DNA from: an uncultured Rikenella sp.
Lineage (GTDB): Bacteria > Bacteroidota > Bacteroidia > Bacteroidales > VadinHA17
DNA: 64,000 bases
Reading direction: 5' to 3'
Assembly (NCBI GenBank): GCA_964455705.1
Contig: CAYVYM010000006.1
Location: 25,805-89,804 of the forward strand
A model generated the notes under the pieces. The model was given only the letters and a program-made list of their open reading frames with translations. It searched no databases and had not been told where the DNA came from. The position numbers were made by a program, and so were the translations under genes. The first letter of the stretch is position 1. Each line of letters begins with the position of its first letter. Of this stretch, positions 1 to 50,024 are shown in pieces.

Positions 1-1362
1 GGAGCCCGGCTCCATCACTCTTCCGGCCAGGGAGGCAATCAGCCTGCCGTCGGTATCATATATGCTCAGGGTCACATGTGATCTTTTTGTGATGGTGTAG
101 TGGATAACAGATTGTTCAGTGACAGGATTCGGAGTGATCTGCATGTTTCCGGCAGGTTCAGCCGTGGGCCCCTCCCCTGATGAGGTATAGCCTGCGATGA
201 AGGCTCTCTTCAGCCCTTCCCACAGTTCCGGTCTTCCGGCTTCGTAACTAAGGGCCCAGATGCCTATGCCGGCCAGGTTCATCTCCTTGGCGATATTGTT
301 TTTTATCCGGAGGCTGACGCTGTCATCGTACCACATCTGCCTCCACTGAGTTGTCTGATAGCTTATATACGGTACGCCTGTCACATCGTCAAAGATCCTG
401 GTATTGGAAGCGACCAGTCCAAGCGCGGTGTTGTAAATCCGTGATGTTCCCGTTCCCGTGGTGGCAGCCTTCCTCGCGCTGCTGGTGACAGGCCAGTCGT
501 ACCCGTACCACGGCACCCCGAGGAGCAGCTTGCCGGGAGGTACTCCGTCAGCAAAATAATCCTCATTGATGCTTTTCACAATGTTGTATGTCTCACCTGA
601 TACAGGAGCTACCGGCCCTGCGGTTGATGATCCGCTCCAATAGTAATTATACCCCATCATTATGATGTAATCGCAAATGCCGGCAAGGGCGCCGAGGTCC
701 CATCCGTCGGACCAGTTGACTGCCGGCGTGGCAAGCGATATCTCAGCATCAGGCATCACGGCCTTTATCCCTCTTACGGCCCTGCGGCAGAAAGAGACCA
801 TGTTTGCCTTCTGCGCTGCCGGAACAGACTCAAAGTCGAAGTTCACTCCGTCGCCGTTGCGCAGCTGCAGCTGGTTGATCACCGTGTTGATCAGGTTCCA
901 CTGCTTTACAGTATCGGTAAGTAGTTCAGTATTGCGTGCCGACCCGAAGTTGGTTACTGTCAGTGTCACTTTTACCCCTTTCACGTGAGCATAACTGATA
1001 ACAGAAGTGGTGTCCCATCCTCTCAGGGTTGTATATCCTCCTGTCGCGGTGTCAACCTCAAGGCTGAAGTATGCTATATGGGAGAGAGCGCTGTAATCAT
1101 AGAAGGTATATGCCATTGAACCTGCCCAGTATGGATGCCAGCCATATACCTTATGTGTCAGAGTGCCGGTACTCTTGCTCTTGAGCAGGGAGGGGAGGGC
1201 GGGCGAGAGGTCACCCCGAGTATGTAGATTACCGGTTATGCGTGAATAGAATTCACTCTCAGCCTGATGGATACCGACAAATGATGTGTCATATTCCTGG
1301 GCAGCTGCCACGAAAGATGCAACAGAAAACAGAATTGCGGTCAGTGTGGTCCTAATGCGCAT
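1..1362 (-). CDS. GH18 glycoside hydrolase (YaaH/chitinase-like) with a T9SS C-terminal sorting domain; the 3' end runs off the window
   Basis: Absent from the ORF track because no stop codon lies in the window. Manual minus-strand translation from the ATG at 1362 gives an open 454-codon frame. It has a signal peptide MRIRTTLTAILFSVASFVAAAQ, the GH18 catalytic block NGDGVNFDFE, and a tail ITPNPVTEQSVIHYTITKRSHVTLSIYDTDGRLIASL typical of type-A T9SS C-terminal domains. Confidence 0.8.
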   Translation of the reverse strand, partial: MRIRTTLTAILFSVASFVAAAQEYDTSFVGIHQAESEFYSRITGNLHTRGDLSPALPSLLKSKSTGTLTHKVYGWHPYWAGSMAYTFYDYSALSHIAYFSLEVDTATGGYTTLRGWDTTSVISYAHVKGVKVTLTVTNFGSARNTELLTDTVKQWNLINTVINQLQLRNGDGVNFDFESVPAAQKANMVSFCRRAVRGIKAVMPDAEISLATPAVNWSDGWDLGALAGICDYIIMMGYNYYWSGSSTAGPVAPVSGETYNIVKSINEDYFADGVPPGKLLLGVPWYGYDWPVTSSARKAATTGTGTSRIYNTALGLVASNTRIFDDVTGVPYISYQTTQWRQMWYDDSVSLRIKNNIAKEMNLAGIGIWALSYEAGRPELWEGLKRAFIAGYTSSGEGPTAEPAGNMQITPNPVTEQSVIHYTITKRSHVTLSIYDTDGRLIASLAGRVMEPGS

Positions 1363-1384
1363 GCATGCTGACTGAATGAATGTC

Positions 1385-2110
1385 TCAGCTGGTTTTAAAA
1401 TACTTCTTGTAAATCTCCATGTTACGCTCCAGGAGGCTGACGGAGACCTCGTAGGCCTTCCGGCTGTCCCTTTCCCTGAGAGCTTCAAGAAGCTCCAGCT
1501 GGTATTTCATTGTATATTCTTTTTCGCCTTCAATGTTTCCGTAGATCAGGTTCCTCATACGCGGCAGAAGGGAATAGACGGGTTCAAGGCTGATGATAAC
1601 AATTGGGTTGCCAGTGGCCTTTGAAAGATTCATGTGGAAGCGGTTGATGAGATCAACCTCAAGTTGGGTGTTGTCAGGATTGCATTTCTCCAGCTCGTGC
1701 TGGTTCTTCTGAAGGGTCCGGATGTCGTCATCGGTCCGGTTCCTCGCCGCAAGCCTTGCCACTTCAGGTTCAAAGAGCCGCCTCACCTCAATAATCTGGA
1801 GTATCAGGTCCGAGTTGAACCTCAGGTCATAAAAGAGATGCAGGGAGTTGATGGCATCCTCTATCTTCAGCTCGGAGATATACATACCGCTTCCCTTACG
1901 GATATCTATCAGTCCGCGTGCGCTCAGGCGACGCAGAGCCTCCCTGAGGGCCGTTCGGCTGACAGCGAACTGTCCGCATAGTTCCTTTTCCGTTGGCAGC
2001 TTGGAGCCCGGCAGGAGCTTCTTCTGTCTGATTGCTTCCTCAATCCTCCTCTCTATCTTCTGGCTGAGAGTGAGTCCTGAACCGATTTTGCTGAAGATAT
2101 CATTAGTCAT
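1385..2110 (-). CDS. GntR-family transcriptional regulator, FadR/FCD subfamily
   Basis: 241 aa. The N-terminal winged-helix block is PTEKELCGQFAVSRTALREALRRLSARGLIDIRKGSGMYI. An all-helical C-terminal effector half of about 150 aa follows. It is the last regulator-type gene of the murK-murQ transcription unit. Confidence 0.9.
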   Translation of the reverse strand: MTNDIFSKIGSGLTLSQKIERRIEEAIRQKKLLPGSKLPTEKELCGQFAVSRTALREALRRLSARGLIDIRKGSGMYISELKIEDAINSLHLFYDLRFNSDLILQIIEVRRLFEPEVARLAARNRTDDDIRTLQKNQHELEKCNPDNTQLEVDLINRFHMNLSKATGNPIVIISLEPVYSLLPRMRNLIYGNIEGEKEYTMKYQLELLEALRERDSRKAYEVSVSLLERNMEIYKKYFKTS

Positions 2111-3935: not shown

Positions 3936-3947
3936 TCGTAATAACAA
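3936..3947. promoter_or_regulatory. Degenerate operator-like site TCGTAATAACAA in the murK / amidase-like divergent region
   Basis: It has a GT-N4-AC core with one extra central base. It overlaps a minus-strand -7 box TATATTTG (3952-3945) upstream of murK-murQ-gntR. The match is weak. Confidence 0.3.
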
Positions 3948-4011
3948 ATATAAATAAAAATATTGAATAATCAGTTTTTTGTCAGATGTATGACATATTT
4001 AAAAAACTTTC

Positions 4012-4019
4012 TATTTTTG
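4012..4019 (+). promoter_or_regulatory. Bacteroidota-type -7 promoter box TATTTTTG upstream of the nine-gene plus-strand operon
   Basis: It matches TAnnTTTG and is 35 bp upstream of the ATG at 4054. The inverted repeat TGTCA-N6-TGACA (3980-3995) lies just upstream. Confidence 0.45.
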
Positions 4020-4053: not shown

Positions 4054-7000
4054 ATGATGCGAGTTTCCCATCTCATTCATTACGTTGTATTTACGCTTAT
4101 CATGTTTGCCGTGCCGGCAAGCCTCTGCGGCCAGAAGGCCGGCAGGGCGGAGAGAGCTGCTGAGAACAGGCTTAAAGATTGGACAAGTACTGTTGAAGGG
4201 TGGCATTTCCCTGAAAAACTAAAGATTGATTCTCTCAGGGTTGACCAGGAGACAAAGGAGGTGAACATATGGTTCCCCGTCACCCTCTCATATAATCCCC
4301 TGAGAGAGGAGAACACCACGAGGCTTGTCACTTCGCTCAGGGATGAGCTCGGGAGAAAGTTTAGCGGTTACGATATCAATATATTTACCAACGGGTTTAG
4401 TATAAACCGGCTAATACCGAATTACTTCAGGTATATCACCCCGCATGATATGTCAAGGATACCGCCGGCCCCGGGTGAGAGGCCTGCTATTGTCAACCGT
4501 ATTGACAGGGTCAGCGCATCTGAAGGACTTGACGGAAGGTACATTGCCATGTGGCACAGCCATGGTTACTATTTTGACATGCCCCTCGACAGGTGGGAGT
4601 GGCAGCGTGCAAAACTCTTCGGCAGTGTTGAAGATCTTTCAGTGATGGCTTATGTGATTCCCTACCTGGCGCCTATGCTTGAAAACTCCGGTGCAACCCT
4701 GTTCCTGCCGCGAGAGAGAGATATCCAGTCAAATGAGGTAATTGTTGATAACGACCGTTCAACGGGAAGATCTGAATTTGTATTACATATTTCCACTCCA
4801 GCTGTGGAGGCCGGCAGGGGCTTTCTCCTGAGAGATACGCTTTTTACCGGAGACAATCCCTTCCTTATGGGCACCTCACTGCTGATCGGTGACGGCTTGG
4901 CAGAATATGTCCCTGAAATTCCCGAAAAGGGCTACTACGGTGTTACTGTCTCCTATCCACAACTGAAAGATAACGGCGGCAAGGTCCTGGTGAAGGTCAT
5001 GCACACCGGGGGGAGCACTGACTTCATTGTTGACCAGGCAATGGGAGGAGGCACATGGCTCTGGCTGGGATCTTTCAAGTTTGATGAAGGTATTAACCAC
5101 GCCAGGGGCTCGGTCACGATATCGGGTTATGATGGATCGGCGGCAGCTGTTGATGCCGTCCGTTTTGGCGGAGGCATGGGTAATGTTGCGCGGCGGCCTG
5201 CCGCAACGGTTATTTCCAACCAGTGGTCGCTCAACGCGGGCAGCCAGTCGCAGGAAGCCGGTCCTGTGTCAGACAGTATAACCTATAGCTGGAAGCTGAG
5301 CAGCAAACCCCGTTACCTCGAGGCTGCCCGCTACTGGCTACAGTATGCAGGCATGCCTGACACCCTTGTCTACACAATAAACAGAGGGAAGAACGATTAC
5401 AACGATGATTACATGTCACGTTCCGAATGGGTCAATTACCTTCTCCGCAAGCCGGACAGTGCAGGGCTCACAGGTATGGGCATTCCTTTGGACCTCTCCT
5501 TTGCATTCCATACCGATGCCGGAGTAACACCTGATGATTCCGTAATAGGCACCCTTGGCATTTATTCGACCCTTTCAAACCAGGGTCTGTTCCCCGACGG
5601 GACCAGCCGTCTTGCAAGTCGCGACCTTACTGATATTATCCAGACGCAGATCGTTGAGGATATCAGGGTGCTGTTTAACCCTGAGTGGACCCGTCGGGGG
5701 CTGTGGGACAGGTCATACTACGAAGCCCGCAAGCCTGACGTACCCGCCATGCTCCTTGAGCTATTGTCACATCAGAACCTTGCTGACCAGCGATACGGAT
5801 TTGACCCCCGTTTCAGGTTTCATGTCAGCCGGGCAGTCTACAAGGGCATCCTGAGGTACCTGGCAACTGCTTCAGGGACAGGTTATAGTGTTCATCCGCT
5901 TCCGGTATCTCACATGGCCCTGGCACACACCGGAGATATGAGCGTCAGGGTCAGTTGGGAGCCGGTAAATGACCCCCTGGAATCAACGGCGGTTCCATCC
6001 TCATACAGGGTATACATGCGCACCGGTGACGGAGGGTTTGACAATGGGACCCCTGTTAACGGTAACTATTTTGAAACAGAACTGCCATCTTATAACACCG
6101 CGTACAGTTTCCGGGTAACCGCCGTGAACGACGGTGGTGAGAGTTTCCCTTCCGAGACATTGTCAGTGGGACTGGTTCCGGAATCTGAAGGTACGGTGCT
6201 GATAGTCAATGGATTTGACCGCATATCGGGCCCTGCGTGGTTCGACCGCGGAGGAATGGCCGGCGTAGCCTGGTGGAATGACCGCGGAGTGGCCGATCAT
6301 TACAACTTCGTCAGCGTGGGCGACCAGTATGACTTTGACCGCAAGTCGCCGTGGACTGACGACGACAATGCCGGGTGGGGCTCATCATACTCTGACAGCG
6401 AGGGCCGGGTCATCGCAGGAAACACCTTTGACTTTCCATATATTCATGGCCTCTCTGTCATGGCTGCCGGAAAATCATTCGTTTCAGTGAGTGATGAGGT
6501 GTTCAACAGGGAAGATTTTGATCTGGATCCCTGGTGTGCTGTTGACCTGTTGTTTGGAGAAGAAAAGGCCACGGCATCAGCATATGATCCGGTGAAGAAG
6601 GATTTTCAGATATACACACCGGAGTTCCTGAGGAGTCTTGAGAGGCTGAAGGAGGCCTCTCTTCCGGTCTTTATGTCGGGGGCTTACCCGGGTACTGACC
6701 TGGTCATGCTGGCTGATACGGCGACTGCCGCAAGAGTGATGAAAACCCTGCATTTCAAACCCCGCACAGACCATGCCGTAAACACAGGCAGTCTCTATGC
6801 CACAGATATTGCCGGGCCGGACTTCACCGGCAGCTACAGCTTCAACACCGGATCAGTTGATGACATATATGCCGCTGAGGCTCCTGATGCCATCGAGCCG
6901 GCTGACAAGCTCTCAGCCACAGCATTCCGGTACACTGAGAACAATACTTCTGCCGCTGTCATGCACAGGGGTGAGGTGAGGAGCTTCGTCATGGGATTTC

Positions 7001-15013: not shown

Positions 15014-17944
15014 ATGAAGGAGAGCAAAAGGTTTGCAAGACTCGCGGGTGAGATCAGGGGTGATCTCTACACTGATGCAACACAGCGGATACTGTATGCA
15101 ACCGACGCATCGGCCTACCGCGAGATCCCGCTTGCAGTGACGAGGCCTGGCGGGAACGACGACATAAAGAAGATCCTCGCCTTCGCCCGCAGCGAGGGAA
15201 CCTCCGTCATCCCCCGCGGCGCCGGCACTTCATTGGCAGGGCAGGTAGTGGGTCCGGGTATCGTCATTGACATCTCGAAATACCTTAACCGCATACTGGA
15301 ATTCAATGCCGCTGAACGATGGGTGAAAGTTGAGCCTGGTGTGATACTGTCGGAGCTGAACCTCTACCTTGCTCCACACGGACTTCAGTTCGGGCCGGAG
15401 ACATCGACAGCTAACCGGTGCTGCATGGGCGGCATGCTGGGCAATAACTCATGCGGGGCACATTCGCTCATACACGGAAGTGTCAGGGACCATATCCTTG
15501 AGGTTGATGCCATCCTCTCAGACGGGTCTGAGGCTCACTTCGGAGCCCTTACAACGGAAGAGTTCAGGGCAAAGTGCGACGGTGACCCTGCCCTCGTTGA
15601 GACACGGATCTACAGGAACCTTCGTGACACACTCTCTGACAGCCGCAATGCGGAGGAGATAAGGAATGAATTCCCCCACCCGGAGCTGCGGCGACGCAAT
15701 AACGGCTACGCCCTCGACTCCCTGCTGCATACAGACCCCTTCACCGGCAACGGCGAAAAGCTGAATGTTTGTAAGCTTCTTGCAGGGTCGGAGGGGACCC
15801 TGGCCTTCACTACGGCGATGAAACTGAACCTGGTTCAGGTGACGGTACAGAAGACCGGGCTGCTGTGCGCCCATTTCAGCAGCCTACAGGATGCCGTCAG
15901 GGCCAACATCATCGCCCTCAGGCACAATCCTGCAGCTATTGAACTGATTGATGACTATATCCTTAACTGCACAAAAGACAACATAGAGCAGAGTCGTAAC
16001 CGCTTTTTCGTTAAGGGCGATCCGAAGGTCATTCTCATAATTGAGATTACCAGGCCGACCGATGCGGAGATCGAGAAGGCAGCTGCCGCGATGGAGAAGG
16101 ATATGGTCGCTGCCGGATACGGCTTCCACTTCCCTCTTGTGACTGAACCCGATGAGATGGCCAGGGTCTGGGAGCTTCGCAAGGCCGGGCTCGGTGTGTT
16201 GCTCAACATCCCGGGTGCGAAGAAGAGCGTGCAGGTGATTGAGGATACTGCCGTTCTGCCGGAGCTCTTCCCCGAATATATTGAAGAGGCGGGAGAGGTT
16301 CTGAAAAAATACGGGCTGAGCTGTGCCTACTATGCCCACATAGCCACGGGAGAGCTGCACCTCAGTCCACTGCTCGACCTCAAGGATCCTGATGACATTC
16401 GCACCTTCCACGGTTTGGCTGAGGATATCGCCCGCCTTGTAAAAAAGTACCGCGGCTCCCTGAGCGGTGAACATGGCGACGGAAGGCTCAGGGGTGAATT
16501 CATTCCCCTGATGCTGGGTGCACATAACTACGGATTGCTTAAGGAGTTGAAGAGAACATGGGATCCGTACAATCTTTTTAACCCCGGCAAGATAACCGAT
16601 ACGCCTCCCATCATTGAGAACCTGAGGTATCCCGCAGGTGTCAGGACCAGGGTGCCGGGACTTGTTTTTGAGTTCCCGGAGGAGGAGGGGCTTCTCTATG
16701 CCACCGAGAAGTGCAGCGGGTCAGCCGACTGCCGCAAGAGCGCCCTGATGGGCGGTACCATGTGTCCCACATTCATGGCCACGGGTGATGAGGACAAGTC
16801 GACCCGTGCCCGGGCCAACATACTCCGTGAGTTTCTTACAAGGTCGGATAAGAAGAACCGCTTTGACCACGAGGAGATCTACCGCGTGATGGATCTCTGC
16901 ATCTCATGCAAGGCCTGCAAGTCAGAGTGTCCCTCTAACGTTGATGTGGCCAAGTTCAAGGCAGAGTTCATGCAGCACTACTATGACATCCACCATGTGC
17001 CCTTCCGCGCCTGGCTGATAGCATGGCTGCCAAGACTATATGCACCGGGGATGATGGTGCGTCCGCTTACCAATTTCCTGACGGGCACATCACTCTTCAA
17101 GCGGGTGATAGGATTTTCCGTCAGGCGTCCCATACCGTCTCTCTCACCCGTCACCCTCAGGCGATGGAAGAGAAGGCAGGAGAGGAATCCGGGTGCGGTG
17201 AGCGGAAGGATAGGCAGTGTATGCCTCTTTGCCGATGAGTTCACCAACTACAATGAAAGTGATATCGGCATCAAGGCGGTGATGCTGCTTGAGCGGCTTG
17301 GATACGATGTGGTCATCCCCCTCCACAAAGAGAGCGGCCGGACCTTCCTCTCGAAGGGTCTGCTGAGTTCGGCGCGTAAGATTGCGGTAAAGAACATTCT
17401 CATGCTCAGGGACCTGGTCTCGGATGAGAGGCCGCTGATAGGCATCGAGCCGTCGGCGCTGCTCACCTTCCGTGATGAGTATCCGGAGATTGCCGGCAGC
17501 GCCCTTACGGGCGATGCCAGGGCCATCGCCCGCAATGCCCTCCTCTTTGAGGAATTCATCTGCAGAGAGATGGAGAAGGGAAACATCTCTTCCGCACAGT
17601 TTACAGATCAGCCCCTGAAGGTCCTCCTGCACGGTCACTGCCAGCAGAAGGCTATTGCCTCAACAGCACCCACCCTCAGGATGCTCTCCCTGCCGGCCAA
17701 CTACCATGTGGAGGAGATAAATGACGGCTGCTGTGGCATGGCAGGGGCTTTCGGGTATGAAAAGGAGCACTATGACCTGAGTATGAAGATAGGTGAGATG
17801 GTGCTCTTTCCGGCAGTGCGCAAGGCCGCTGAGGATACTGTTATCACCGCCCCCGGAACATCATGCCGGCATCACATAGCTGACGGCACCGGGAGGAAAG
17901 CCATTCACCCCATTGAGGTGATGTACAATGCTCTTAGGAAATAA
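15014..17944 (+). CDS. FAD-linked oxidase fused to Fe-S/CCG domains (YdiJ/GlcD-GlcF-like; candidate D-lactate or D-2-hydroxyacid dehydrogenase)
   Basis: 976 aa. The N-terminal PCMH-type FAD domain contains VIPRGAGTSLAGQVVG. A ferredoxin-type motif CISCKACKSECP lies in the middle. Cys-rich CCG-like repeats (DGCCGMAGAFG) lie at the C-terminus. Confidence 0.75.
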   Translation: MKESKRFARLAGEIRGDLYTDATQRILYATDASAYREIPLAVTRPGGNDDIKKILAFARSEGTSVIPRGAGTSLAGQVVGPGIVIDISKYLNRILEFNAAERWVKVEPGVILSELNLYLAPHGLQFGPETSTANRCCMGGMLGNNSCGAHSLIHGSVRDHILEVDAILSDGSEAHFGALTTEEFRAKCDGDPALVETRIYRNLRDTLSDSRNAEEIRNEFPHPELRRRNNGYALDSLLHTDPFTGNGEKLNVCKLLAGSEGTLAFTTAMKLNLVQVTVQKTGLLCAHFSSLQDAVRANIIALRHNPAAIELIDDYILNCTKDNIEQSRNRFFVKGDPKVILIIEITRPTDAEIEKAAAAMEKDMVAAGYGFHFPLVTEPDEMARVWELRKAGLGVLLNIPGAKKSVQVIEDTAVLPELFPEYIEEAGEVLKKYGLSCAYYAHIATGELHLSPLLDLKDPDDIRTFHGLAEDIARLVKKYRGSLSGEHGDGRLRGEFIPLMLGAHNYGLLKELKRTWDPYNLFNPGKITDTPPIIENLRYPAGVRTRVPGLVFEFPEEEGLLYATEKCSGSADCRKSALMGGTMCPTFMATGDEDKSTRARANILREFLTRSDKKNRFDHEEIYRVMDLCISCKACKSECPSNVDVAKFKAEFMQHYYDIHHVPFRAWLIAWLPRLYAPGMMVRPLTNFLTGTSLFKRVIGFSVRRPIPSLSPVTLRRWKRRQERNPGAVSGRIGSVCLFADEFTNYNESDIGIKAVMLLERLGYDVVIPLHKESGRTFLSKGLLSSARKIAVKNILMLRDLVSDERPLIGIEPSALLTFRDEYPEIAGSALTGDARAIARNALLFEEFICREMEKGNISSAQFTDQPLKVLLHGHCQQKAIASTAPTLRMLSLPANYHVEEINDGCCGMAGAFGYEKEHYDLSMKIGEMVLFPAVRKAAEDTVITAPGTSCRHHIADGTGRKAIHPIEVMYNALRK

Positions 17945-21560: not shown

Positions 21561-21632
21561 CTCCCGATAATTTATATAACTTTTGACATTAAGCACTCTG
21601 GCTCACTTTAGTTCACTCCGAACTTAAAAAAA

Positions 21633-21643
21633 TTGTATTACAA
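21633..21643. promoter_or_regulatory. Perfect 11-bp palindrome TTGTATTACAA (TTGTAATACAA on the other strand); candidate GntR/FadR-type operator
   Basis: It lies in the divergent namZ / NlpC-P60 intergenic region. It fits the TNGTNNNACNA pattern reported for FadR-subfamily GntR regulators. Confidence 0.5.
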
Positions 21644-21688
21644 ATTAAATTAATTCATTTAACTATTGACTTGAATGTTATTAATATT

Positions 21689-21696
21689 TAATTTTG
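21689..21696 (+). promoter_or_regulatory. Bacteroidota-type -7 promoter box TAATTTTG
   Basis: It matches TAnnTTTG exactly. A TTG lies 20 bp upstream (21666-21668). The box is 27 bp upstream of the NlpC/P60 ATG. Confidence 0.5.
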
Positions 21697-21706
21697 GATT
21701 TGTAAG

Positions 21707-21717
21707 ATGTAATACAA
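21707..21717. promoter_or_regulatory. Near-perfect copy (ATGTAATACAA, 10/11) of the same palindrome
   Basis: It sits about 11 bp downstream of the -7 box at 21689-21696 and 5 bp upstream of the NlpC/P60 ATG (21723). That is a repressor-type position. Confidence 0.45.
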
Positions 21718-21722
21718 CTTTC

Positions 21723-22892
21723 ATGAAACACTTCAGCTACCTTATCCTCTTATTATGTGTGATTCAGCTCGCCGGATGTCAGAAAAAAGAGGTTCCTGCC
21801 GATCTGCAGGAACAGCTTGATTCGATCGCAGCTGTCATGGTTCCCCAGCACGCAGAAGCCCTGTGTGACGTAAAACTCTCAATGGGAGAGGGAAAAAGCA
21901 TTATCGTCAAAGGCGAAACGGACCTGCCGAAGGCAAAGGAAGAGATCCTTGCAATGCTTGGCAAATCGGGTTACACTTTCACTGACAGTATCATCGTGTT
22001 GCCTGACCCTGCGGTTGTGGCAAGGCCCTGGGGGCTGGTATCGGTCAGCGTTTGCAACATACGAAGCCGGCCTTCTCACACAGCCGAGTTGGTTACCCAG
22101 GCTCTTATGGGCACACCTGTAAAGATACTCAACCATCGTGGGGGATGGCTGTTGGTGCAGACGCCTGATTCCTATATCGGGTGGGTCAGAAGTACGGTGG
22201 TCGAACTGACTGACGATGAGATGGCCGCGTGGAAGGGCAGTGACAGGGTGATCTATCTCGGGTACGCCGGGGTGATAACCGACAGCAGGGGTGAGACCGT
22301 TTCGGACGTGTCCTTCGGGGCGATCCTTGTCATAAACGGCACACGCAGTGACAAATGGACTGTTGTCCTGCCTGACGGAAGGACCGGCGAGGTTAAGAAG
22401 AGTGAAGCGGCCGGGTTTAGAACATGGGCTGAGACCGCCGGCACTAAACCGCAGGGGCTGATTCGTTTTGCCAGGTCATTTATGGGCACACCATACCTGT
22501 GGGGCGGAACCTCGACCAAGGGGGTGGATTGCAGCGGCTACACAAAGATGATATATTATTATGGCGGTGTAATTATGACCCGTGATGCATCAGGGCAGTT
22601 CAGGTACGGTGACGAGGTAAGTATAGAGAAGCCGGGTGAGTCGCTGGCTCCCGGAGACCTCCTCTATTTCGGCAGTGTCAGTAACAGTATCACTCACACA
22701 GGCATGTTCATAGGAGACACTGAATTCATCCATGCATCAGGATCAGGGATGGTGATAATCAACAGTTTCGACTCAACGAGAACGAACTACAGCGAAAATC
22801 TGCTCCGGATACTGCAGGGCGCCAGGCGTGTGACAGGATTCACCGAAGGCAAGGGTCTGGAACGTGTTTCACAACACAGCTGGTATTTTTAA
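21723..22892 (+). CDS. NlpC/P60 (C40) lipoprotein with SH3b domains, similar to YkfC gamma-D-glutamyl-L-diamino acid endopeptidase
   Basis: Start at ATG 21723 gives MKHFSYLILLLCVIQLAGC, with a lipobox. The catalytic block is GTPYLWGGTSTKGVDCSGY. HTGMFIGDTEFIHAS is also present. Confidence 0.8.
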   Translation: MKHFSYLILLLCVIQLAGCQKKEVPADLQEQLDSIAAVMVPQHAEALCDVKLSMGEGKSIIVKGETDLPKAKEEILAMLGKSGYTFTDSIIVLPDPAVVARPWGLVSVSVCNIRSRPSHTAELVTQALMGTPVKILNHRGGWLLVQTPDSYIGWVRSTVVELTDDEMAAWKGSDRVIYLGYAGVITDSRGETVSDVSFGAILVINGTRSDKWTVVLPDGRTGEVKKSEAAGFRTWAETAGTKPQGLIRFARSFMGTPYLWGGTSTKGVDCSGYTKMIYYYGGVIMTRDASGQFRYGDEVSIEKPGESLAPGDLLYFGSVSNSITHTGMFIGDTEFIHASGSGMVIINSFDSTRTNYSENLLRILQGARRVTGFTEGKGLERVSQHSWYF

Positions 22893-22898
22893 ACGACA

Positions 22899-24053
22899 AT
22901 GAAAAAAAGAGATTTCATCAAGATCGGAGGCCTCGCGGCAGGGGCTATGATGGTTGGCTGTTCATCACCTGAAGCCGACGGTACAGGCAGAAACAGAGGT
23001 TCTGTGAAAAGTGGCAGCGGGGTTTTGAAACTCAGCTACAGGCCTTATGAGCTTCAGCTCAGGCATGTCTTCACGGTGGCTACGAGCTCCAGAACGACCA
23101 CTCCGGTGGTCCTTACCACGATTGAGTATGACGGTGTCACCGGTTTCGGCGAGGCCTCAATGCCTCCTTACCTGGGAGAGAGTCATGAATCTGTCTTGAA
23201 TTTCCTCTCAAAGGTGAACCTGGAACAGTTCAGTGACCCCTTCCTCATTGAGGATATTCTTACATATATAGAAGGTGTGATGCCAGGCAATTATGCAGCC
23301 AAGGCATCGCTTGACATCGCCCTGCATGATCTTACCGGCAAGCTTCTGGGACAGCCCTGGTTCAGGATCTGGGGGCTGAATCCGGCAAAGACACCGATGA
23401 CCAGCTTTACAATTGGGATCGATACCGCTGACGTGGTGCGTGAGAAGACCCTCGAAGCCAGCGCCTTTAAAATGCTGAAGATCAAGCTGGGGCGCGACAA
23501 CGACAGGGAGATGATAGAGACAGTGAGGTCAGTGACCGATGTTCCGATATTCGTCGATGTGAATCAGGGCTGGAAAGACAGGGTCTATGCCATGGAGATG
23601 GCACACTATCTGAAAGAGAAAAATGTTCTGTTCATTGAGCAACCCATGCCGAAGGAGCAGGTTGATGACATCGCCTGGCTCACGGCGGGCAGCCAAATTC
23701 CCATCGTTGCCGATGAAGCCCTTCAGACTGTCACTCAGCTGCTGTCGATGAAGGGAATATATTCCGGCATCAACATCAAGCTCATGAAGTGCGGCGGGAT
23801 GCATGCGGCATACAAGATGATAACCATGGCCAGACAGATGGATATGAAGGTTTTGATAGGATGTATGACCGAAACTTCATGCGCGGTCTCGGCTGCCGCC
23901 CAGCTCTCACCGCTGGTCGACTGGGCAGATCTTGATGGTAACCTTCTGATAGCCAATGATATTTATGAGGGCATGACTGTTGTTGACGGAAAAATCAGCC
24001 TTCCTGACAGGCCCGGTATTGGAATTATTGATAAGAAAAGTGAGAATTTGTAA
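22899..24053 (+). CDS. Dipeptide epimerase (L-Ala-D/L-Glu epimerase type, enolase superfamily) with a Tat-like lipoprotein signal
   Basis: MR/MLE-type blocks are MLKIKLG, FIEQPMP, VADEAL and NIKLMKCGG. The N-terminal extension is MKKRDFIKIGGLAAGAMMVGC (22899-22961). Confidence 0.8.
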   Translation: MKKRDFIKIGGLAAGAMMVGCSSPEADGTGRNRGSVKSGSGVLKLSYRPYELQLRHVFTVATSSRTTTPVVLTTIEYDGVTGFGEASMPPYLGESHESVLNFLSKVNLEQFSDPFLIEDILTYIEGVMPGNYAAKASLDIALHDLTGKLLGQPWFRIWGLNPAKTPMTSFTIGIDTADVVREKTLEASAFKMLKIKLGRDNDREMIETVRSVTDVPIFVDVNQGWKDRVYAMEMAHYLKEKNVLFIEQPMPKEQVDDIAWLTAGSQIPIVADEALQTVTQLLSMKGIYSGINIKLMKCGGMHAAYKMITMARQMDMKVLIGCMTETSCAVSAAAQLSPLVDWADLDGNLLIANDIYEGMTVVDGKISLPDRPGIGIIDKKSENL

Positions 24054-24085
24054 TACAACTTTAAATATATATTAATATCTTGCTT
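24048..24085 (+). promoter_or_regulatory. 38-bp conserved module TTGTAATACAAC-N16-TATCTTGCTT upstream of the GKRP-like gene
   Basis: The palindrome is at 24048-24058 and contains the TAA stop of the epimerase gene. The -7-like box TATCTTGC is at 24076-24083. The same two blocks recur with identical 16-bp spacing at 25982-26019. Confidence 0.55.
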
Positions 24086-24184
24086 GGCAGAAGACGATTA
24101 ATCATCATCAAATAAAACAACCTGATAAATTCTGTTTAACATCAATTCCAATACTTTTTCATTTTCACATTAAGAGAATAATTG

Positions 24185-25987
24185 ATGCATAAGAAAGCAC
24201 ATCTGGAGGCTGACCACTTCCTGAATAATGAGACACAGTTTCATCTTGGTATGCTGCCTACAGAGCAGGCGAATCCAAAGACCCGCAACCTTGACAAAAT
24301 TTTTGCTGAAAGTACCAGTGAGGGAGTGAAAACCCTGCTCTCTGTAGACATGGATATATATCTCATGGCTCAAAGGATTTTCAGAAGTAAGGAGTATGCC
24401 AGTCTTGTAAAGGCCGGAGTGAAGGCAATTTCTGAGGGGAAGAAGATAGTATTTTCGGGTTGCGGCGCCACAGGCCGGTTAAGTATCCTTCTGGAGTCTT
24501 TCTGGAGATGCTTTTTCAGAGACTTGCATCAGAAATATCCGGATATCTATAAGAAGGTAAAACATGTTGAGAACTCCGTATTCAGCATAATGACCGGGGG
24601 CGATTATGCACTCATCAGGGCTGTGGAGTATTTTGAGGATTACCAGGAATTTGGAAGACAGCAGGCCAGGGAACTGAACATTATTGAAGGAGATATTCTC
24701 ATAGCCATTACCGAAGGAGGGGAGACCTCGTCGGTTCTTGGCACCCTGGCTGAAGCTGCAGATCGTGGTGCTTTTGTATTCCTAATGTTCAATAACCCTG
24801 CCGACATTCTCTGCAAATATATTGAGCGCTCCAGGATAGCCATCGAAGATCCCAGGGTGACTGTGCTGGACCTGTTCTGCGGACCAATGGCAATTGCGGG
24901 TTCTACAAGAATGCAGGCAACAACCTCGGAACAGCTTATTGCCGGTGCTTCCCTTGAATCAATTTTAGGTCAGTATTTCAGGGAGCTGCTTTCCGTGGAG
25001 GAGCTGGAATTGCTGAATATCAGAGAGACAGACTATGCTGAGGCTTATAATGAAATGCTCGGTGAGATTCTCTCGGGACAAAACCCTGAGATCATCGGTA
25101 AATATATCCTGATGGAGAAAAGCACGTACCAGGAAAACGGGCTTGTGACATATTATGGCAATACTTTAATGCTCGATATTTTTACTGACACTACCGAACG
25201 GTCTCCAACTTTCATGTTGCCGCCTTTCAGGAAATATGACGACACTGTATCTCCGCCGTCATGGGCTTTCGTTAAGAATCCTCTTCTGCCAACACCTGAA
25301 GCCTGGGTAAACGTTTTAGGGCGTTCCCCAAGATGCCTGGAGTGGGATGCGAACCTTTACACGAAAATGAATGCTCCGCAGGCACTCATTTCAGACCCGC
25401 CTCCTTTGGATTTATCACAAATCCTTAAATTTCAAATTGGCAACGAAGAGGATAGCTCACGGATCTCAAAAAAACCTAATGTTGCCGTAAATGTTATCAG
25501 TCGGGTAGAACTATCCAGACCCGAATTTGGAAATTATCAGGCTGCCTTCAACAGAGCTGCAGAAAAGTATCAGGCCAAGTTTGCAATGATAATAGGAACT
25601 TGTGATGAGGCAGCCAGTTACAAGATCACCTGTTCACCGCAACAATCGGTGTTCAATCTTATGGACCGGCTGGCAGTCAAAATTGTCCTGAATACGGTCT
25701 CCACCGGAACTATGGTTGTGATGGGCAGGGTTCTGGGCAACTGGATGAGCTGGGTTGATGTTACAAACAAGAAGCTGAAAGACCGCGGAATAAGACTTAT
25801 TTCCGACATCTGCGGAATAAGCTACAAGGATGCCTGTTATGCTCTTCATGAATCACTGGAGGAATTGAAATCATTTGATGTTTCCACCGGTGAAAAACCT
25901 TCTCCTGTTCAGTACACTATTAACAGAACAGGACTTCCCGGCAACCCCGGGATTGGATTTGCCGAGAAAGAAATTGGTAACTTGTAA
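24185..25987 (+). CDS. Double-SIS, GKRP-like (glucokinase regulatory protein-like) long paralog of MurQ
   Basis: About 600 aa. LPTEQANPKTRNLDK, VFSGCGATGRLSILLE, MTGGDYALIRAVEYFEDY, IAGSTRMQATTSEQL and the C-terminal KIVLNTVSTGTMVVMGRVLGN line up block by block with human GKRP (ITEKSNPLTQDLDK, LSGGGTSGRMAFLM, IAGGDRSV..EGTEDS, GSSRMKGGSATK, WVLNTVSTGAHVLLGKILQN). The track start at 24182 is TTG; the ATG is at 24185. Confidence 0.75.
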   Translation: MHKKAHLEADHFLNNETQFHLGMLPTEQANPKTRNLDKIFAESTSEGVKTLLSVDMDIYLMAQRIFRSKEYASLVKAGVKAISEGKKIVFSGCGATGRLSILLESFWRCFFRDLHQKYPDIYKKVKHVENSVFSIMTGGDYALIRAVEYFEDYQEFGRQQARELNIIEGDILIAITEGGETSSVLGTLAEAADRGAFVFLMFNNPADILCKYIERSRIAIEDPRVTVLDLFCGPMAIAGSTRMQATTSEQLIAGASLESILGQYFRELLSVEELELLNIRETDYAEAYNEMLGEILSGQNPEIIGKYILMEKSTYQENGLVTYYGNTLMLDIFTDTTERSPTFMLPPFRKYDDTVSPPSWAFVKNPLLPTPEAWVNVLGRSPRCLEWDANLYTKMNAPQALISDPPPLDLSQILKFQIGNEEDSSRISKKPNVAVNVISRVELSRPEFGNYQAAFNRAAEKYQAKFAMIIGTCDEAASYKITCSPQQSVFNLMDRLAVKIVLNTVSTGTMVVMGRVLGNWMSWVDVTNKKLKDRGIRLISDICGISYKDACYALHESLEELKSFDVSTGEKPSPVQYTINRTGLPGNPGIGFAEKEIGNL

Positions 25988-26019
25988 TACAACATACCAA
26001 AGAAATTTGTATCTTGCTT
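25982..26019 (+). promoter_or_regulatory. Second copy of the TTGTAATACAAC-N16-TATCTTGCTT module, upstream of SusC pair 1
   Basis: The palindrome is at 25982-25992 and contains the TAA stop of the GKRP-like gene. TATCTTGCTT is at 26010-26019. All 22 conserved positions match at identical spacing to the copy at 24048-24085. Confidence 0.55.
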
Positions 26020-26091
26020 ATGGGACAGAAACCAATTTTCCAACTATCATATATAACCTAATCCATACTATTTAACCCTAAATCCAATCAC

Positions 26092-36150: not shown

Positions 36151-36227
36151 GGATGAGCCGCTTATGCCTCCGGAAGGAGAAAACAAAAAAAGCACAATTA
36201 AACCCAATAATTTGTATTATGAATTAT

Positions 36228-36235
36228 GTATCTTG
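36228..36235 (+). promoter_or_regulatory. -7-like box TATCTTGG upstream of SusC pair 2
   Basis: It shares TGTATCTTG-N3-ATGG with the SusC pair 1 module at 26008-26024. It is preceded by the degenerate TTGTATTATGAA at 36211-36222. Confidence 0.4.
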
Positions 36236-36383
36236 GCCATGGAAAATGAATAGATGCGGAAGTGTGAGTTTGTTATTTTTCCTGGGATAAATCATGGAAA
36301 CTTGCTTAATTGATAAACATAATATGAGTAAGTCTGTTGTATTGTTTTACCTATTACTAAATACTAACCTAAAATCTTAATTT

Positions 36384-49874: not shown

Positions 49875-50024
49875 GATATTGTATTACTATGGATTTTGAG
49901 TAAAATTAATAAAATTATCAGGAGCAGGAAAATACGCACTCCTCCTGAAACGCTTCGAAGCGAACTTTACGGCCCGGGTGTCGGAATCTGAGTGCCGGGG
50001 ATGAACCATTTATAACAAAGGCAA

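What the first reader, a model, noticed from the sequence alone, without database searches (positions are those of the whole stretch)
21633..26019. A recurrent palindrome TTGTAATACAA and a duplicated 38-bp promoter module may define a regulon for the locus-encoded GntR/FadR regulator
The 11-mer palindrome occurs perfectly three times, always intergenic or straddling a stop codon.
- Perfect copies: 21633-21643 (namZ / NlpC-P60 divergent region), 24048-24058 (upstream of the GKRP-like gene) and 25982-25992 (upstream of SusC pair 1).
- One 10/11 copy lies at 21707-21717, between a TAATTTTG -7 box and the NlpC/P60 ATG.
- Degenerate versions lie at 3936-3947 (overlapping a -7 box for murK-murQ-gntR) and 36211-36222 (upstream of SusC pair 2).

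The copies at 24048 and 25982 are embedded in TTGTAATACAAC-N16-TATCTTGCTT with identical spacing, giving 22 matching positions. A single repeated 12-mer could be chance in 64 kb, but this module cannot.

The sequence fits the TNGTNNNACNA pattern of FadR-subfamily GntR operators, and the only regulator in the locus is such a protein (1385-2110). An alternative reading is an ECF-sigma-type promoter, with a -35 element ending in AAC, a 16-bp spacer and a -10 element.
Basis: partly seen in the sequence, partly recalled or inferred. Interest (0 to 1): 0.65.

Follow-up and report, generated by a model that had tools for sequence, protein, structure and literature searches.

The report
GntR operator sites in peptidoglycan-utilisation locus
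The repeated palindrome is real and is almost certainly the DNA site where the locus's own GntR/FadR-type regulator binds to switch a set of cell-wall (peptidoglycan) scavenging genes on and off; this is an ordinary regulatory design applied to an unusual substrate.

Summary
TTGTAATACAA and its reverse complement occur where stated, and the 38-bp module TTGTAATACAAC-N16-TATCTTGCTT occurs twice against 0 expected.

A weight matrix trained only on relatives finds six sites in the window. The 36211 site is a decayed copy of a full module that relatives carry upstream of SusC2.

The sites are conserved in position across syntenic loci whose GKRP-like protein is 68-90% identical. They lie on or just upstream of Bacteroidetes -7 promoter boxes.

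The palindrome is 11/12 identical to the E. coli DgoR operator and fits the FadR-subfamily consensus TKGT-N3-ACMA.

The decisive evidence is that the motif tracks the regulator. It lies beside gntR orthologues at 61-68% identity, and 13-72 nt upstream of six homologues at 34-46% identity in unrelated contexts. More distant homologues carry TGGTCnnACCA instead.

The module is an operator centred near -35 plus a variant -7 box (TAnnTTGC). It is not an ECF-sigma promoter.

The closest known system is AusR of Zobellia, a PUL-encoded FadR-type repressor. I rate this a new member of a known kind. Repression and the effector are inferred, not shown.

The parts
1385..2110 (-). The regulator gene: a GntR winged-helix domain plus an FCD effector domain (FadR subfamily). 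It is the last gene of murK-murQ-gntR.
   Evidence: Pfam GntR 1.3e-21 and FCD 4.8e-18. It reaches no NCBIfam equivalog cut-off; the best match is the NanR subfamily, 115 bits against 260. DgoR (7c7e) is the second-best PDB hit, E 7e-19. It is always linked to murK-murQ and the divergent amidase operon in relatives.
3979..3999 (.). Operator A, TTGTCAGATGTATGACATATT (core 3986-3996; reverse complement TGTCATACA). It lies in the murK / amidase-operon divergent region, 14 nt upstream of the amidase -7 box.
   Evidence: PWM 21.3. Conserved in L081, L082, L084, L091, L096 and L098, and in the 68% and 61% GntR orthologue loci L093 and L094.
4012..4019 (+). Canonical Bacteroidetes -7 box TATTTTTG of the amidase-GT2-DUF4922-SpoIID-GH9/CE4-AmpG-oxidase-NagB-like operon
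   Evidence: Matches TAnnTTTG and lies 35 nt upstream of the ATG. Conserved together with operator A.
3945..3952 (-). Candidate -7 box TATATTTG of murK-murQ-gntR. Operator A is centred about 50 nt upstream of the start site this box implies.
   Evidence: The position is only roughly conserved in relatives. Inference.
4778..4788 (.). Operator-like core inside the amidase coding sequence (codons E-F/V-V-L/I-H)
   Evidence: PWM 22.9. Kept in L081, L082, L084, L091 and L096, including synonymous positions. A Leu->Ile change preserves the palindrome. Function not established.
21630..21646 (.). Operator B (core 21633-21643), proximal to namZ. Its left arm on the minus strand overlaps a -7-like TAATTTG.
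   Evidence: PWM 24.5. Conserved as TTGTCATACA in L004, L006, L008 and L015-L018. It lies 74-75 bp from operator C in the seven relatives that have both sites.
21689..21696 (+). Canonical -7 box TAATTTTG of the NlpC/P60-epimerase unit
   Evidence: Conserved in all relatives.
21700..21720 (.). Operator C, TTGTAAGATGTAATACAACTT (core 21707-21717). [quoted passage not shown]
   Evidence: PWM 24.9. Identical in all 12 relatives examined, including L010 and L014 (75%), and also in L019 (68%, 44% GC).
24045..24061 (.). Operator D (core 24048-24058), upstream of the GKRP-like gene. It contains the epimerase TAA stop.
   Evidence: PWM 26.2. Present only in the closest relatives L001 and L004; absent or replaced in the others. 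This is a lineage-specific gain.
24076..24083 (+). Variant -7 box TATCTTGC of the GKRP-like gene promoter
25979..25995 (.). Operator E (core 25982-25992), upstream of SusC1/SusD1. It contains the GKRP-like gene's TAA stop.
   Evidence: PWM 22.7. The T-TGTA..ACA columns are invariant in a 12-locus alignment that includes L019.
26010..26017 (+). Variant -7 box TATCTTGC of the SusC1 promoter (family consensus TAnnTTGC)
   Evidence: T, A, T, T are invariant and G nearly so in alignment A2. Variants seen are TAACTTGC, TAAATTGC and TACCTTC, plus TACCTTGC in L002.
36211..36236 (+). Decayed module upstream of SusC2: TTGTATTATGAA...TATCTTGG, about 11 bp shorter than the intact form
   Evidence: PWM 12.3. 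Relatives L006 and L016-L018 have an intact TTGTCATACATC-N16-TATCTTGC at this place.

Best explanation
The palindrome is the operator of the FadR-subfamily GntR regulator encoded at 1385-2110. Its full form is a 17-bp inverted repeat, AAnTTGT(A/C)ATACAAnTT.

A dimer of this protein is proposed to bind six places in the locus. Through them it would control at least five transcription units of a peptidoglycan/MurNAc-utilisation locus:
- the amidase-to-NagB-like operon, and probably the divergent murK-murQ-gntR operon (autoregulation), through operator A;
- namZ, through operator B;
- NlpC/P60-epimerase, through operator C;
- the GKRP-like gene, through operator D;
- SusC1/SusD1, through operator E.

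In relatives the regulon also includes SusC2/SusD2. In this genome that operator has decayed.

The '38-bp module' is one promoter design used repeatedly: the operator centred about 35 nt upstream of the start site, an A/T-rich spacer of 15-17 nt, then a variant -7 box TAnnTTGC.

The most likely action is repression by blocking RNA polymerase. Repression would be relieved when a peptidoglycan-derived carboxylate binds the FCD domain. Candidates are MurNAc, MurNAc-6-phosphate or D-lactate.

Shown here: the existence, non-randomness, conservation and promoter-proximal position of the sites, and the co-occurrence of the motif with this regulator clade.

Inferred: physical binding, the sign of regulation, the effector, and the transcription start sites.
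For: Non-random occurrence:
- Searches give the in-window statistics.
- A PWM trained on relatives alone recovers six window sites at >=21 bits. The next independent hit scores <=15.
- 45 of 59 core hits in 372 kb of related loci are non-coding, against 5.9% non-coding sequence (P = 3e-43).

Positional conservation:
- Operator C lies downstream of the -7 box.
- Operator E plus TAnnTTGC form islands of invariance in a 12-locus alignment.
- Operator A lies next to the amidase -7 box.
- The SusC2 module is intact in relatives.
- In the 68% lineage L019, the SusC1 operator varies only in its central three bases (TTGTAGCACA).

Family fit:
- The protein has GntR + FCD domains.
- FadR-subfamily operators are TKGT-N3-ACMA (PMC4494728).
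- DgoR IR1 is TTGTAGTACAAC (PMC11705089), and DgoR is the second-best solved homologue.

The motif tracks the regulator:
- The same operator sits in the murK/amidase region beside GntR orthologues of 68% (L093) and 61% (L094) identity.
- In six of nine loci of 34-46% homologues, with no peptidoglycan genes nearby, it sits 13-72 nt upstream of the gntR start (P about 1e-16).
- Homologues at <=35% identity instead carry TGGTCnnACCA.

No competing regulator: none is encoded in the window up to 60.6 kb.

Repression:
- Operators B and C overlap a -7 box or the predicted start site.
- The characterised Bacteroidetes analogue AusR is a repressor with the same layout (PMC7641319).
Against: - There are no binding, expression or start-site data, because the organism is an uncultured MAG.
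- At four promoters the operator sits where a -33 element would be, and the -7 box there is non-canonical (TAnnTTGC rather than TAnnTTTG). That layout would also suit an activator-dependent promoter. Some FadR-family proteins, such as FadR and GlcC, do activate.
- Operator A is about 50 nt upstream of the presumed murK start, so direct autoregulation is uncertain.
- All 80 metagenome loci were selected through the same recognition-helix peptide pattern, VSRT[AV][LIV]RE. The switch from TGT..ACA to GGT..ACC operators therefore cannot be traced to that helix.
- Whether gntR and the distal sites lie in the same genome in all relatives could not be verified.
Confidence: 0.8

Rival explanations
1. 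The protein and sites are the same, but the regulator acts as an activator, or as a dual regulator, at the module promoters (GKRP-like, SusC1, SusC2, amidase). Bound at about -35, it would stand in for the missing -33 element and recruit RNA polymerase to a weak TAnnTTGC box. At NlpC/P60 and namZ it would repress.
For: - The operator-to-box distance is confined to 26-29 nt at four independent promoters and across species.
- The -7 box at the GKRP-like, SusC1 and SusC2 module promoters lacks one T of the canonical TAnnTTTG. In annotated non-coding sequence of the window, that variant is seen only next to the operator.
- No TTTG lies at the canonical -33 distance.
- FadR and GlcC are precedents for activation (general knowledge of the family).
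Against: - The spacing varies by +/-1-2 nt, which class-II-type activation rarely tolerates.
- The amidase promoter has a canonical TATTTTTG box and still has the operator at -35.
- The operators overlapping the start site (C) and a -7 box (B) can only repress.
- Sites 13-72 nt upstream of gntR homologues look like classic autorepression.
- AusR, the characterised Bacteroidetes counterpart, is a pure repressor (PMC7641319).
Confidence: 0.15
2. The module is the promoter of an alternative (ECF-type) sigma factor. TGTAATACAAC would be its -35 element and TATCTTGC its -10 element, separated by 16 bp.
For: - There are two boxes at near-fixed spacing, and the first box ends in AAC.
- Many Bacteroidetes PULs are ECF-controlled (general knowledge).
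- B. thetaiotaomicron has an unexplained second promoter motif, PM2, with -10 and -30 elements (PMC7366714). Its sequence could not be compared here.
Against: - The first box is a two-fold symmetric inverted repeat, the signature of a dimeric regulator.
- It occurs without the second box at NlpC/P60 (downstream of a canonical promoter), at namZ, and inside the amidase gene. At the amidase promoter it pairs with a canonical sigma-A box.
- It occurs directly upstream of gntR homologues in unrelated loci.
- SusC1 and SusC2 have no STN domain, and the window has no sigma or anti-sigma pair.
- The second box varies as TAnnTTGC, like a -7 box.
Confidence: 0.03
3. The palindrome is bound by another regulator encoded elsewhere in the genome, for example a global carbohydrate regulator. 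Its association with the locus GntR would then be coincidental.
For: Only 64 kb of the genome is visible. In some relatives the gntR operon and the SusC loci could not be shown to be contiguous.
Against: - The GT-N3-AC architecture is diagnostic of GntR-family operators (PMC4494728).
- The motif follows this GntR clade into unrelated genomic contexts.
- The operator switches to a different type in the neighbouring clade.
- The background rate of the motif is about 5 per Mb.
Confidence: 0.02

Closest known systems
AusR of Zobellia galactanivorans (PUL-encoded FadR-subfamily GntR repressor of the alginate utilisation system; PMC7641319)
   Same: - Both are Bacteroidetes.
- The regulator is encoded inside the polysaccharide utilisation locus.
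- The operator matches TKGT-N2-3-ACMA.
- Single or multiple operators lie at or near -7 boxes of several promoters, including the TonB-dependent transporter (susC-like) promoter.
- One site is associated with the regulator's own operon.
- New genes are recruited into the regulon by gaining sites. Operator D here compares with alyA1 there.
   Different: - The substrate is peptidoglycan/MurNAc rather than alginate.
- Most operators here are centred at about -35, upstream of the -7 box, rather than overlapping it.
- At three promoters the partner is a variant TAnnTTGC box.
- gntR is the last gene of murK-murQ-gntR.
- Nothing here is experimentally verified.
DgoR of Escherichia coli (FadR-subfamily repressor of D-galactonate catabolism; PMC11705089, PMC7674646)
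   Same: - The operator is almost identical: TTGTAGTACAAC against TTGTAATACAAC.
- Inverted repeats overlap the regulated promoter.
- It is the second-best solved homologue of the window protein (E 7e-19, covering both domains).
- The SR..LRE recognition-helix residues are shared.
   Different: - The proteins are distant homologues: the hit covers both domains but only at E 7e-19.
- The phylum and promoter type differ.
- The regulon differs: a single dgo operon with two adjacent repeats, against five or six dispersed sites.
- The effector is presumably not galactonate.
MurR of E. coli and B. subtilis (regulators of MurNAc catabolism; from my own knowledge, not checked in the library)
   Same: It has the same physiological role: a repressor of murQ-containing MurNAc-6-phosphate catabolic genes, encoded next to murQ.
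   Different: MurR belongs to the RpiR/SIS family and senses MurNAc-6-P through a SIS domain. The protein here is GntR/FCD. The resemblance is functional analogy, not homology.

Membership tests
FadR subfamily of GntR transcription factors (the regulator) | N-terminal GntR winged helix-turn-helix domain | tested here: met
   PF00392, residues 15-78, E 1.3e-21, 76 bits against a cut-off of 27
FadR subfamily of GntR transcription factors (the regulator) | All-helical C-terminal FCD / FadR_C effector and dimerisation domain | tested here: met
   PF07729 FCD, residues 105-228, E 4.8e-18, 66 bits against 24. Full-length alignments to the FCD proteins 6az6, DgoR 7c7e and NanR 6on4.
FadR-subfamily operator (the palindrome) | A/T-rich inverted repeat with TKGT / ACMA boxes and 3 nt between GT and AC (PMC4494728) | tested here: met
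   TTGT-AAT-ACAA, TTGT-CAT-ACAT and ATGT-ATG-ACAT at all six sites. The 17-mer consensus is AATTTGTAATACATCTT, with high information at TGT.ATACA and at the last flank T, and partial conservation at the leading AA.
FadR-subfamily operator (the palindrome) | Sites lie in promoter regions of the regulated genes, typically including the regulator's own operon or divergon | tested here: met
   Five of six sites are non-coding and adjacent to -7 boxes. Operator A lies in the gntR-operon divergon. Sites lie 13-72 nt upstream of gntR homologues. The promoter boxes themselves are predicted, not mapped.
FadR-subfamily operator (the palindrome) | Specific binding by the cognate regulator, relieved by its effector | not testable with these tools
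   Needs EMSA, DAP-seq or ChIP. Only co-occurrence and covariation were obtained.
ECF-sigma-dependent promoter | Both boxes always occur together at fixed spacing, and a cognate sigma / anti-sigma pair (plus an STN-domain SusC for trans-envelope signalling) is present | tested here: not met
   The palindrome occurs alone at 21707, 21633, 4778 and 3986. SusC1 and SusC2 lack an STN domain. No sigma or anti-sigma gene is in the window.
Canonical Bacteroidetes sigma-A promoter (-33 TTTG / -7 TAnnTTTG; PMC7366714) | -7 box TAnnTTTG | tested here: inconclusive
   Met at the amidase, NlpC/P60 and murK promoters. The module boxes are TAnnTTGC, one T short. No start-site data.

The most novel reading that the evidence does not exclude
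The operator-N15-17-TAnnTTGC module is a distinct, activator-dependent promoter class of Bacteroidales. In this reading a FadR-type GntR dimer bound at -35 replaces the -33 element and recruits the housekeeping polymerase to an otherwise defective -7 box. The same protein would then activate the SusC/D transporters and repress the hydrolase genes (namZ, NlpC/P60) from start-site-proximal operators.
Probability: 0.12. Interest if true: 0.6.

Novelty: new member of a known kind. Interest (0 to 1): 0.35.

Why it matters
It gives a concrete, testable regulatory map for a peptidoglycan-scavenging locus in uncultured Bacteroidales: regulator, 17-bp operator, six sites and five or more transcription units. 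The locus includes SusC/D, NamZ, an amidase, NlpC/P60, an L-Ala-D/L-Glu-epimerase-like enzyme, AmpG, MurK and MurQ.

Regulators of MurNAc catabolism known so far are RpiR-type, and PULs are mostly controlled by hybrid two-component systems, SusR-like proteins or ECF sigma factors. A FadR-type repressor for cell-wall necromass use would be a second example, after AusR, of this control logic in the phylum.

The operator can also serve as a search key for further regulon members, and for this regulator clade, in metagenomes.

The regulatory mechanism itself is conventional.

Tried and rejected
- Plasmid database search with 21-27 kb of the window: no match.
- Rfam scan of the whole window at gathering thresholds: no RNA family, so the conserved intergenic blocks are not a known riboswitch or sRNA.
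- RNA hairpin or terminator reading: rejected from the sequence alone. The arms are 5 nt with a 1-nt loop.
- Recent 38-bp duplication: rejected. The two spacers share only 7 of 16 positions, and each copy has its own orthologues.
- Functional meaning of the stop codon inside the palindrome: rejected. The overlap exists only in the closest relatives.
It is not conserved.
- Looking for gntR within 10 kb of the GKRP-like gene in 80 genomes: none found. Linkage therefore had to be tested from the gntR side instead.
- Showing that gntR and the GKRP/SusC locus lie on one contig in a relative: inconclusive. The hits came from the same sample but different contigs.
- Comparison with the B. thetaiotaomicron PM2 promoter motif: not possible. 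The motif appears only in a figure.
- Literature searches for a GntR regulator of MurNAc or peptidoglycan loci in Bacteroidetes: nothing found.
- An extra half-site (TTGTAAGA) 8 bp upstream of the core is shared by operators A and C, and a TACCA half-site follows operator E. The pattern is too inconsistent across sites to claim a longer composite operator.

Full report
**1. The observation**

- The 11-mer TTGTAATACAA is exact at 24048 and 25982 on the plus strand. At 21633 it is exact on the minus strand.
- A 10/11 copy lies at 21707.
- At <=1 mismatch there are 9 matches, against 0.81 expected.
- The composite TTGTAATACAAC-N16-TATCTTGCTT is exact at 24048-24085 and 25982-26019, against 0.00 expected.
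- The core TGTMATACA gives six hits against 0.76 expected.
- Five of these six are non-coding, in a window that is 93% coding (P = 7e-6).

**2. The locus**

Pfam and NCBIfam show a peptidoglycan/MurNAc-utilisation locus of an uncultured Bacteroidales (Rikenellaceae-like) genome. The gene order is:
- gntR (GntR + FCD), murQ and a murK-like gene on the minus strand;
- divergently, an amidase/golvesin protein, GT2, DUF4922, SpoIID, GH9+CE4, an AmpG-like transporter, a YdiJ-like FAD/Fe-S 2-hydroxyacid dehydrogenase, and a protein with a NagB-like domain;
- namZ on the minus strand;
- NlpC/P60, an enolase-superfamily epimerase, and a 600-aa double-SIS 'GKRP-like' protein;
- SusC1/SusD1, CE4 and a GH3-beta-lactamase fusion;
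- SusC2/SusD2.

Neither SusC has an STN domain. No other regulator, sigma factor or anti-sigma factor is encoded up to 60.6 kb.

**3. Phylogenetic footprinting from the GKRP-like gene**

I fetched 80 genomic loci around GKRP-like homologues. The syntenic ones are L001-L019 and L029, with 68-90% protein identity. They were compared region by region.

*NlpC/P60 upstream region*
- The sequence TAnnTTTG-(3 nt)-TTGTAAGATGTAATACAAC-(3-4 nt)-ATG is essentially invariant in all 12 relatives shown, including the 75% lineage. It is also kept in the 68% lineage L019, which has 44% GC.
- This operator therefore lies between a canonical -7 box (21689-21696) and the start codon (21723). It overlaps the predicted start site.

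*namZ-proximal copy (21633)*
- It is conserved as TTGTCATACA, and it lies 74-75 bp from the NlpC/P60 site in seven relatives.

*SusC1 upstream region.* A 12-locus alignment (A2) shows three islands of invariance:
- T-TGTA..ACA, the operator;
- TA..TTG, the box, with variants TATCTTGC, TAACTTGC and TAAATTGC (TACCTTGC in L002);
- a roughly 45-nt leader that ends at the ATG.

In L019 the operator differs only in its central triplet (TTGTAGCACA), as expected for a GT-N3-AC operator.

*GKRP-like upstream copy (24048)*
- It exists only in the two closest relatives. In others the epimerase stop abuts the GKRP-like start, or a different spacer is present.
- It is therefore a recent recruitment.
- The two window modules share 7 of 16 spacer positions, so they are not fresh copies of one another.

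*SusC2 upstream region*
- Relatives carry an intact TTGTCATACATC-N16-TATCTTGC.
- The window's 36211 sequence is an 11-bp-shorter, decayed version.

*Stop codons*
- The TAA-in-palindrome coincidence disappears in relatives whose GKRP-like gene ends earlier.

**4. Footprinting from the regulator gene**

- GntR orthologues are unusually conserved, at 83-96% identity over the top 120 hits.
- They always sit in murK-murQ-gntR, divergent from the amidase operon.
It reads ATGTATGACAT at 3986-3996 in the window and TTGTAAGATGTATGACAAATTTAAAAAACTTTCTAnnTTTG in relatives. It lies 14 nt upstream of the canonical amidase -7 box.
- A further core inside the amidase coding sequence (4778-4788) is retained at synonymous positions in the three relatives aligned. 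In one of them a Leu->Ile change flips the free central base and preserves the palindrome. PWM hits at the matching position in L091 and L096 extend this.

**5. A matrix trained without the window**

- A 17-mer PWM was built from 27 distinct sites of relatives. Its consensus is AATTTGTAATACATCTT.
- It scores six window sites at 21-26 bits: 24045, 21704, 21630, 4775, 25979 and 3983. The next independent hits score <=15.
- In 372 kb of related loci, 45 of 59 core hits are non-coding, against 5.9% non-coding sequence.

**6. Which protein binds it?**

*Family fit*
- The architecture is that of FadR-subfamily operators: TKGT/ACMA boxes with 3 nt between GT and AC (PMC4494728).
- E. coli DgoR IR1 is CTAAATTGTAGTACAACAATAT (PMC11705089), which matches the 12-mer here at 11 of 12 positions.
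- DgoR is the second-best solved homologue of the window protein.

*The motif follows the regulator.* This is the strongest evidence.
- A search of 50%-identity cluster representatives showed that the nearest other clusters are at <=55% identity.
- A metagenome scan with those distant homologues returned a 68% orthologue (L093) and a 61% orthologue (L094). Both lie next to murQ/murK, and both have the operator in the corresponding divergent region.
- In six of nine loci of 34-46% homologues, with no peptidoglycan genes nearby, a TGTMATACA palindrome lies 13-72 nt upstream of the gntR start.
- The background rate is 2 hits in 444 kb, which gives P about 1e-16.
- Homologues at <=35% identity instead carry TGGTCnnACCA about 100-150 nt upstream.

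So the operator type changes with the regulator clade. One caveat applies. All these loci were selected through the same recognition-helix peptide, so the determinant of T against G at that operator position must lie elsewhere in the protein.

**7. How it probably works**

Canonical -7 boxes (TAnnTTTG) lie 20-90 nt upstream of the amidase, NlpC/P60, murK and several housekeeping genes.

Operator positions relative to the boxes:
- Operators B and C overlap a -7-like box or the predicted start site.
- Operators A, D and E, and the relatives' SusC2 operator, begin 26-29 nt upstream of the first base of the -7 box. That puts the operator around -35, in place of a -33 element.

The simplest unified model is repression by occlusion, relieved by an effector that binds the FCD domain.
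- FCD regulators typically sense carboxylates.
- MurNAc and MurNAc-6-P carry a D-lactyl carboxylate, and MurQ releases D-lactate. The operon also encodes a D-2-hydroxyacid-dehydrogenase-like enzyme.
- These compounds are therefore the candidate effectors (inference).

The variant TAnnTTGC box and the constrained spacing leave room for activation at the transporter promoters. That is the rival reading, and it is also the most novel reading not excluded.

The ECF-promoter reading is rejected for three reasons:
- the first box is symmetric;
- it occurs without the second box at four places, and it occurs upstream of gntR homologues elsewhere;
- the signalling components are absent.

**8. What is known**

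- AusR of Zobellia galactanivorans is a PUL-encoded FadR-type repressor. Its operators match TKGT-N2-3-ACMA and lie at -7 boxes of several promoters, including the TonB-dependent transporter promoter and its own. Its authors described it as the first FadR-like regulator characterised in Bacteroidetes (PMC7641319).
- The present case uses the same logic for a different substrate and with a different preferred operator position.
- The FadR-subfamily set analysed in PMC4494728 included no Bacteroidetes regulator.
- The library searches found no report of a GntR regulator for MurNAc or peptidoglycan loci in this phylum.
- Known MurNAc regulators (MurR) are RpiR-type. That statement rests on my own knowledge.

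**9. Verdict**

- This is a new member of a known kind and is of modest interest.
- It is useful as a ready-made hypothesis for experiments, and as a search key for the regulon in metagenomes.

Noticed in passing
window 26047-26091 and 36340-36383; also L006, L019, L081, L085, L089: Every SusC gene seen has TAACC(C)TAAA(A)T 8-10 nt upstream of its ATG. The roughly 45-nt SusC1 leader (...TACTATTTAACCCTAAATCCAATCAC-ATG) is more conserved across relatives than the promoter itself. It may be a translational or sRNA-targeted leader element. There is no Rfam hit.
   Followed up: partly
window 4778-4788 (inside the amidase gene): An operator-like TTGTATTACA is kept in relatives at synonymous codon positions. 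A Leu->Ile substitution flips only the free central base. It may be an auxiliary operator (roadblock or looping) about 790 bp downstream of operator A.
   Followed up: partly
window 1-1384: No ORF longer than 103 aa lies downstream of gntR. Relatives have GH18 and/or GH3-beta-lactamase genes there, so this may be a decayed or gene-poor stretch.
   Followed up: no
window 24185-25987 and loci L001-L080: The 600-aa 'GKRP-like' protein has an N-terminal MurQ-like SIS region and a long, highly conserved C-terminal extension. It is conserved at 50-90% identity across Bacteroidota, Verrucomicrobiota/Lentisphaerota and Planctomycetota MAGs. Its function is unknown.
   Followed up: no
window 23858-23874 (minus strand, inside the epimerase gene): TTTCGGTCATACATCCT is a decayed copy of a TGTCATACA site that L003, L005, L016 and L018 keep about 250 nt upstream of the GKRP-like start. 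The window lineage instead gained operator D in the intergenic spacer.
   Followed up: partly
window 49879-49889: A one-mismatch copy (TAGTAATACAA, minus strand) lies 5 nt upstream of the transketolase start codon. Its PWM score is low, so it is probably chance.
   Followed up: no
L093 9040-9350: Four copies of a repeat of about 60 nt (…GATGAAACGAGCATGGCAA…CATCCGAC…) lie between the operator and the amidase gene in the 68% GntR orthologue locus.
   Followed up: no
L117-L152 (upstream of distant GntR homologues): TGGTC-nn-ACCA palindromes recur about 100-150 nt upstream of GntR/FCD genes from soil metagenomes. This looks like a separate autoregulated clade with a classic FadR/PdhR-like operator.
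   Followed up: partly
window 15014-17944: A 976-aa FAD-oxidase/4Fe-4S protein (YdiJ-like D-2-hydroxyacid dehydrogenase) sits inside the amidase operon. That would fit oxidation of the D-lactate released by the MurQ etherase (inference).
   Followed up: no
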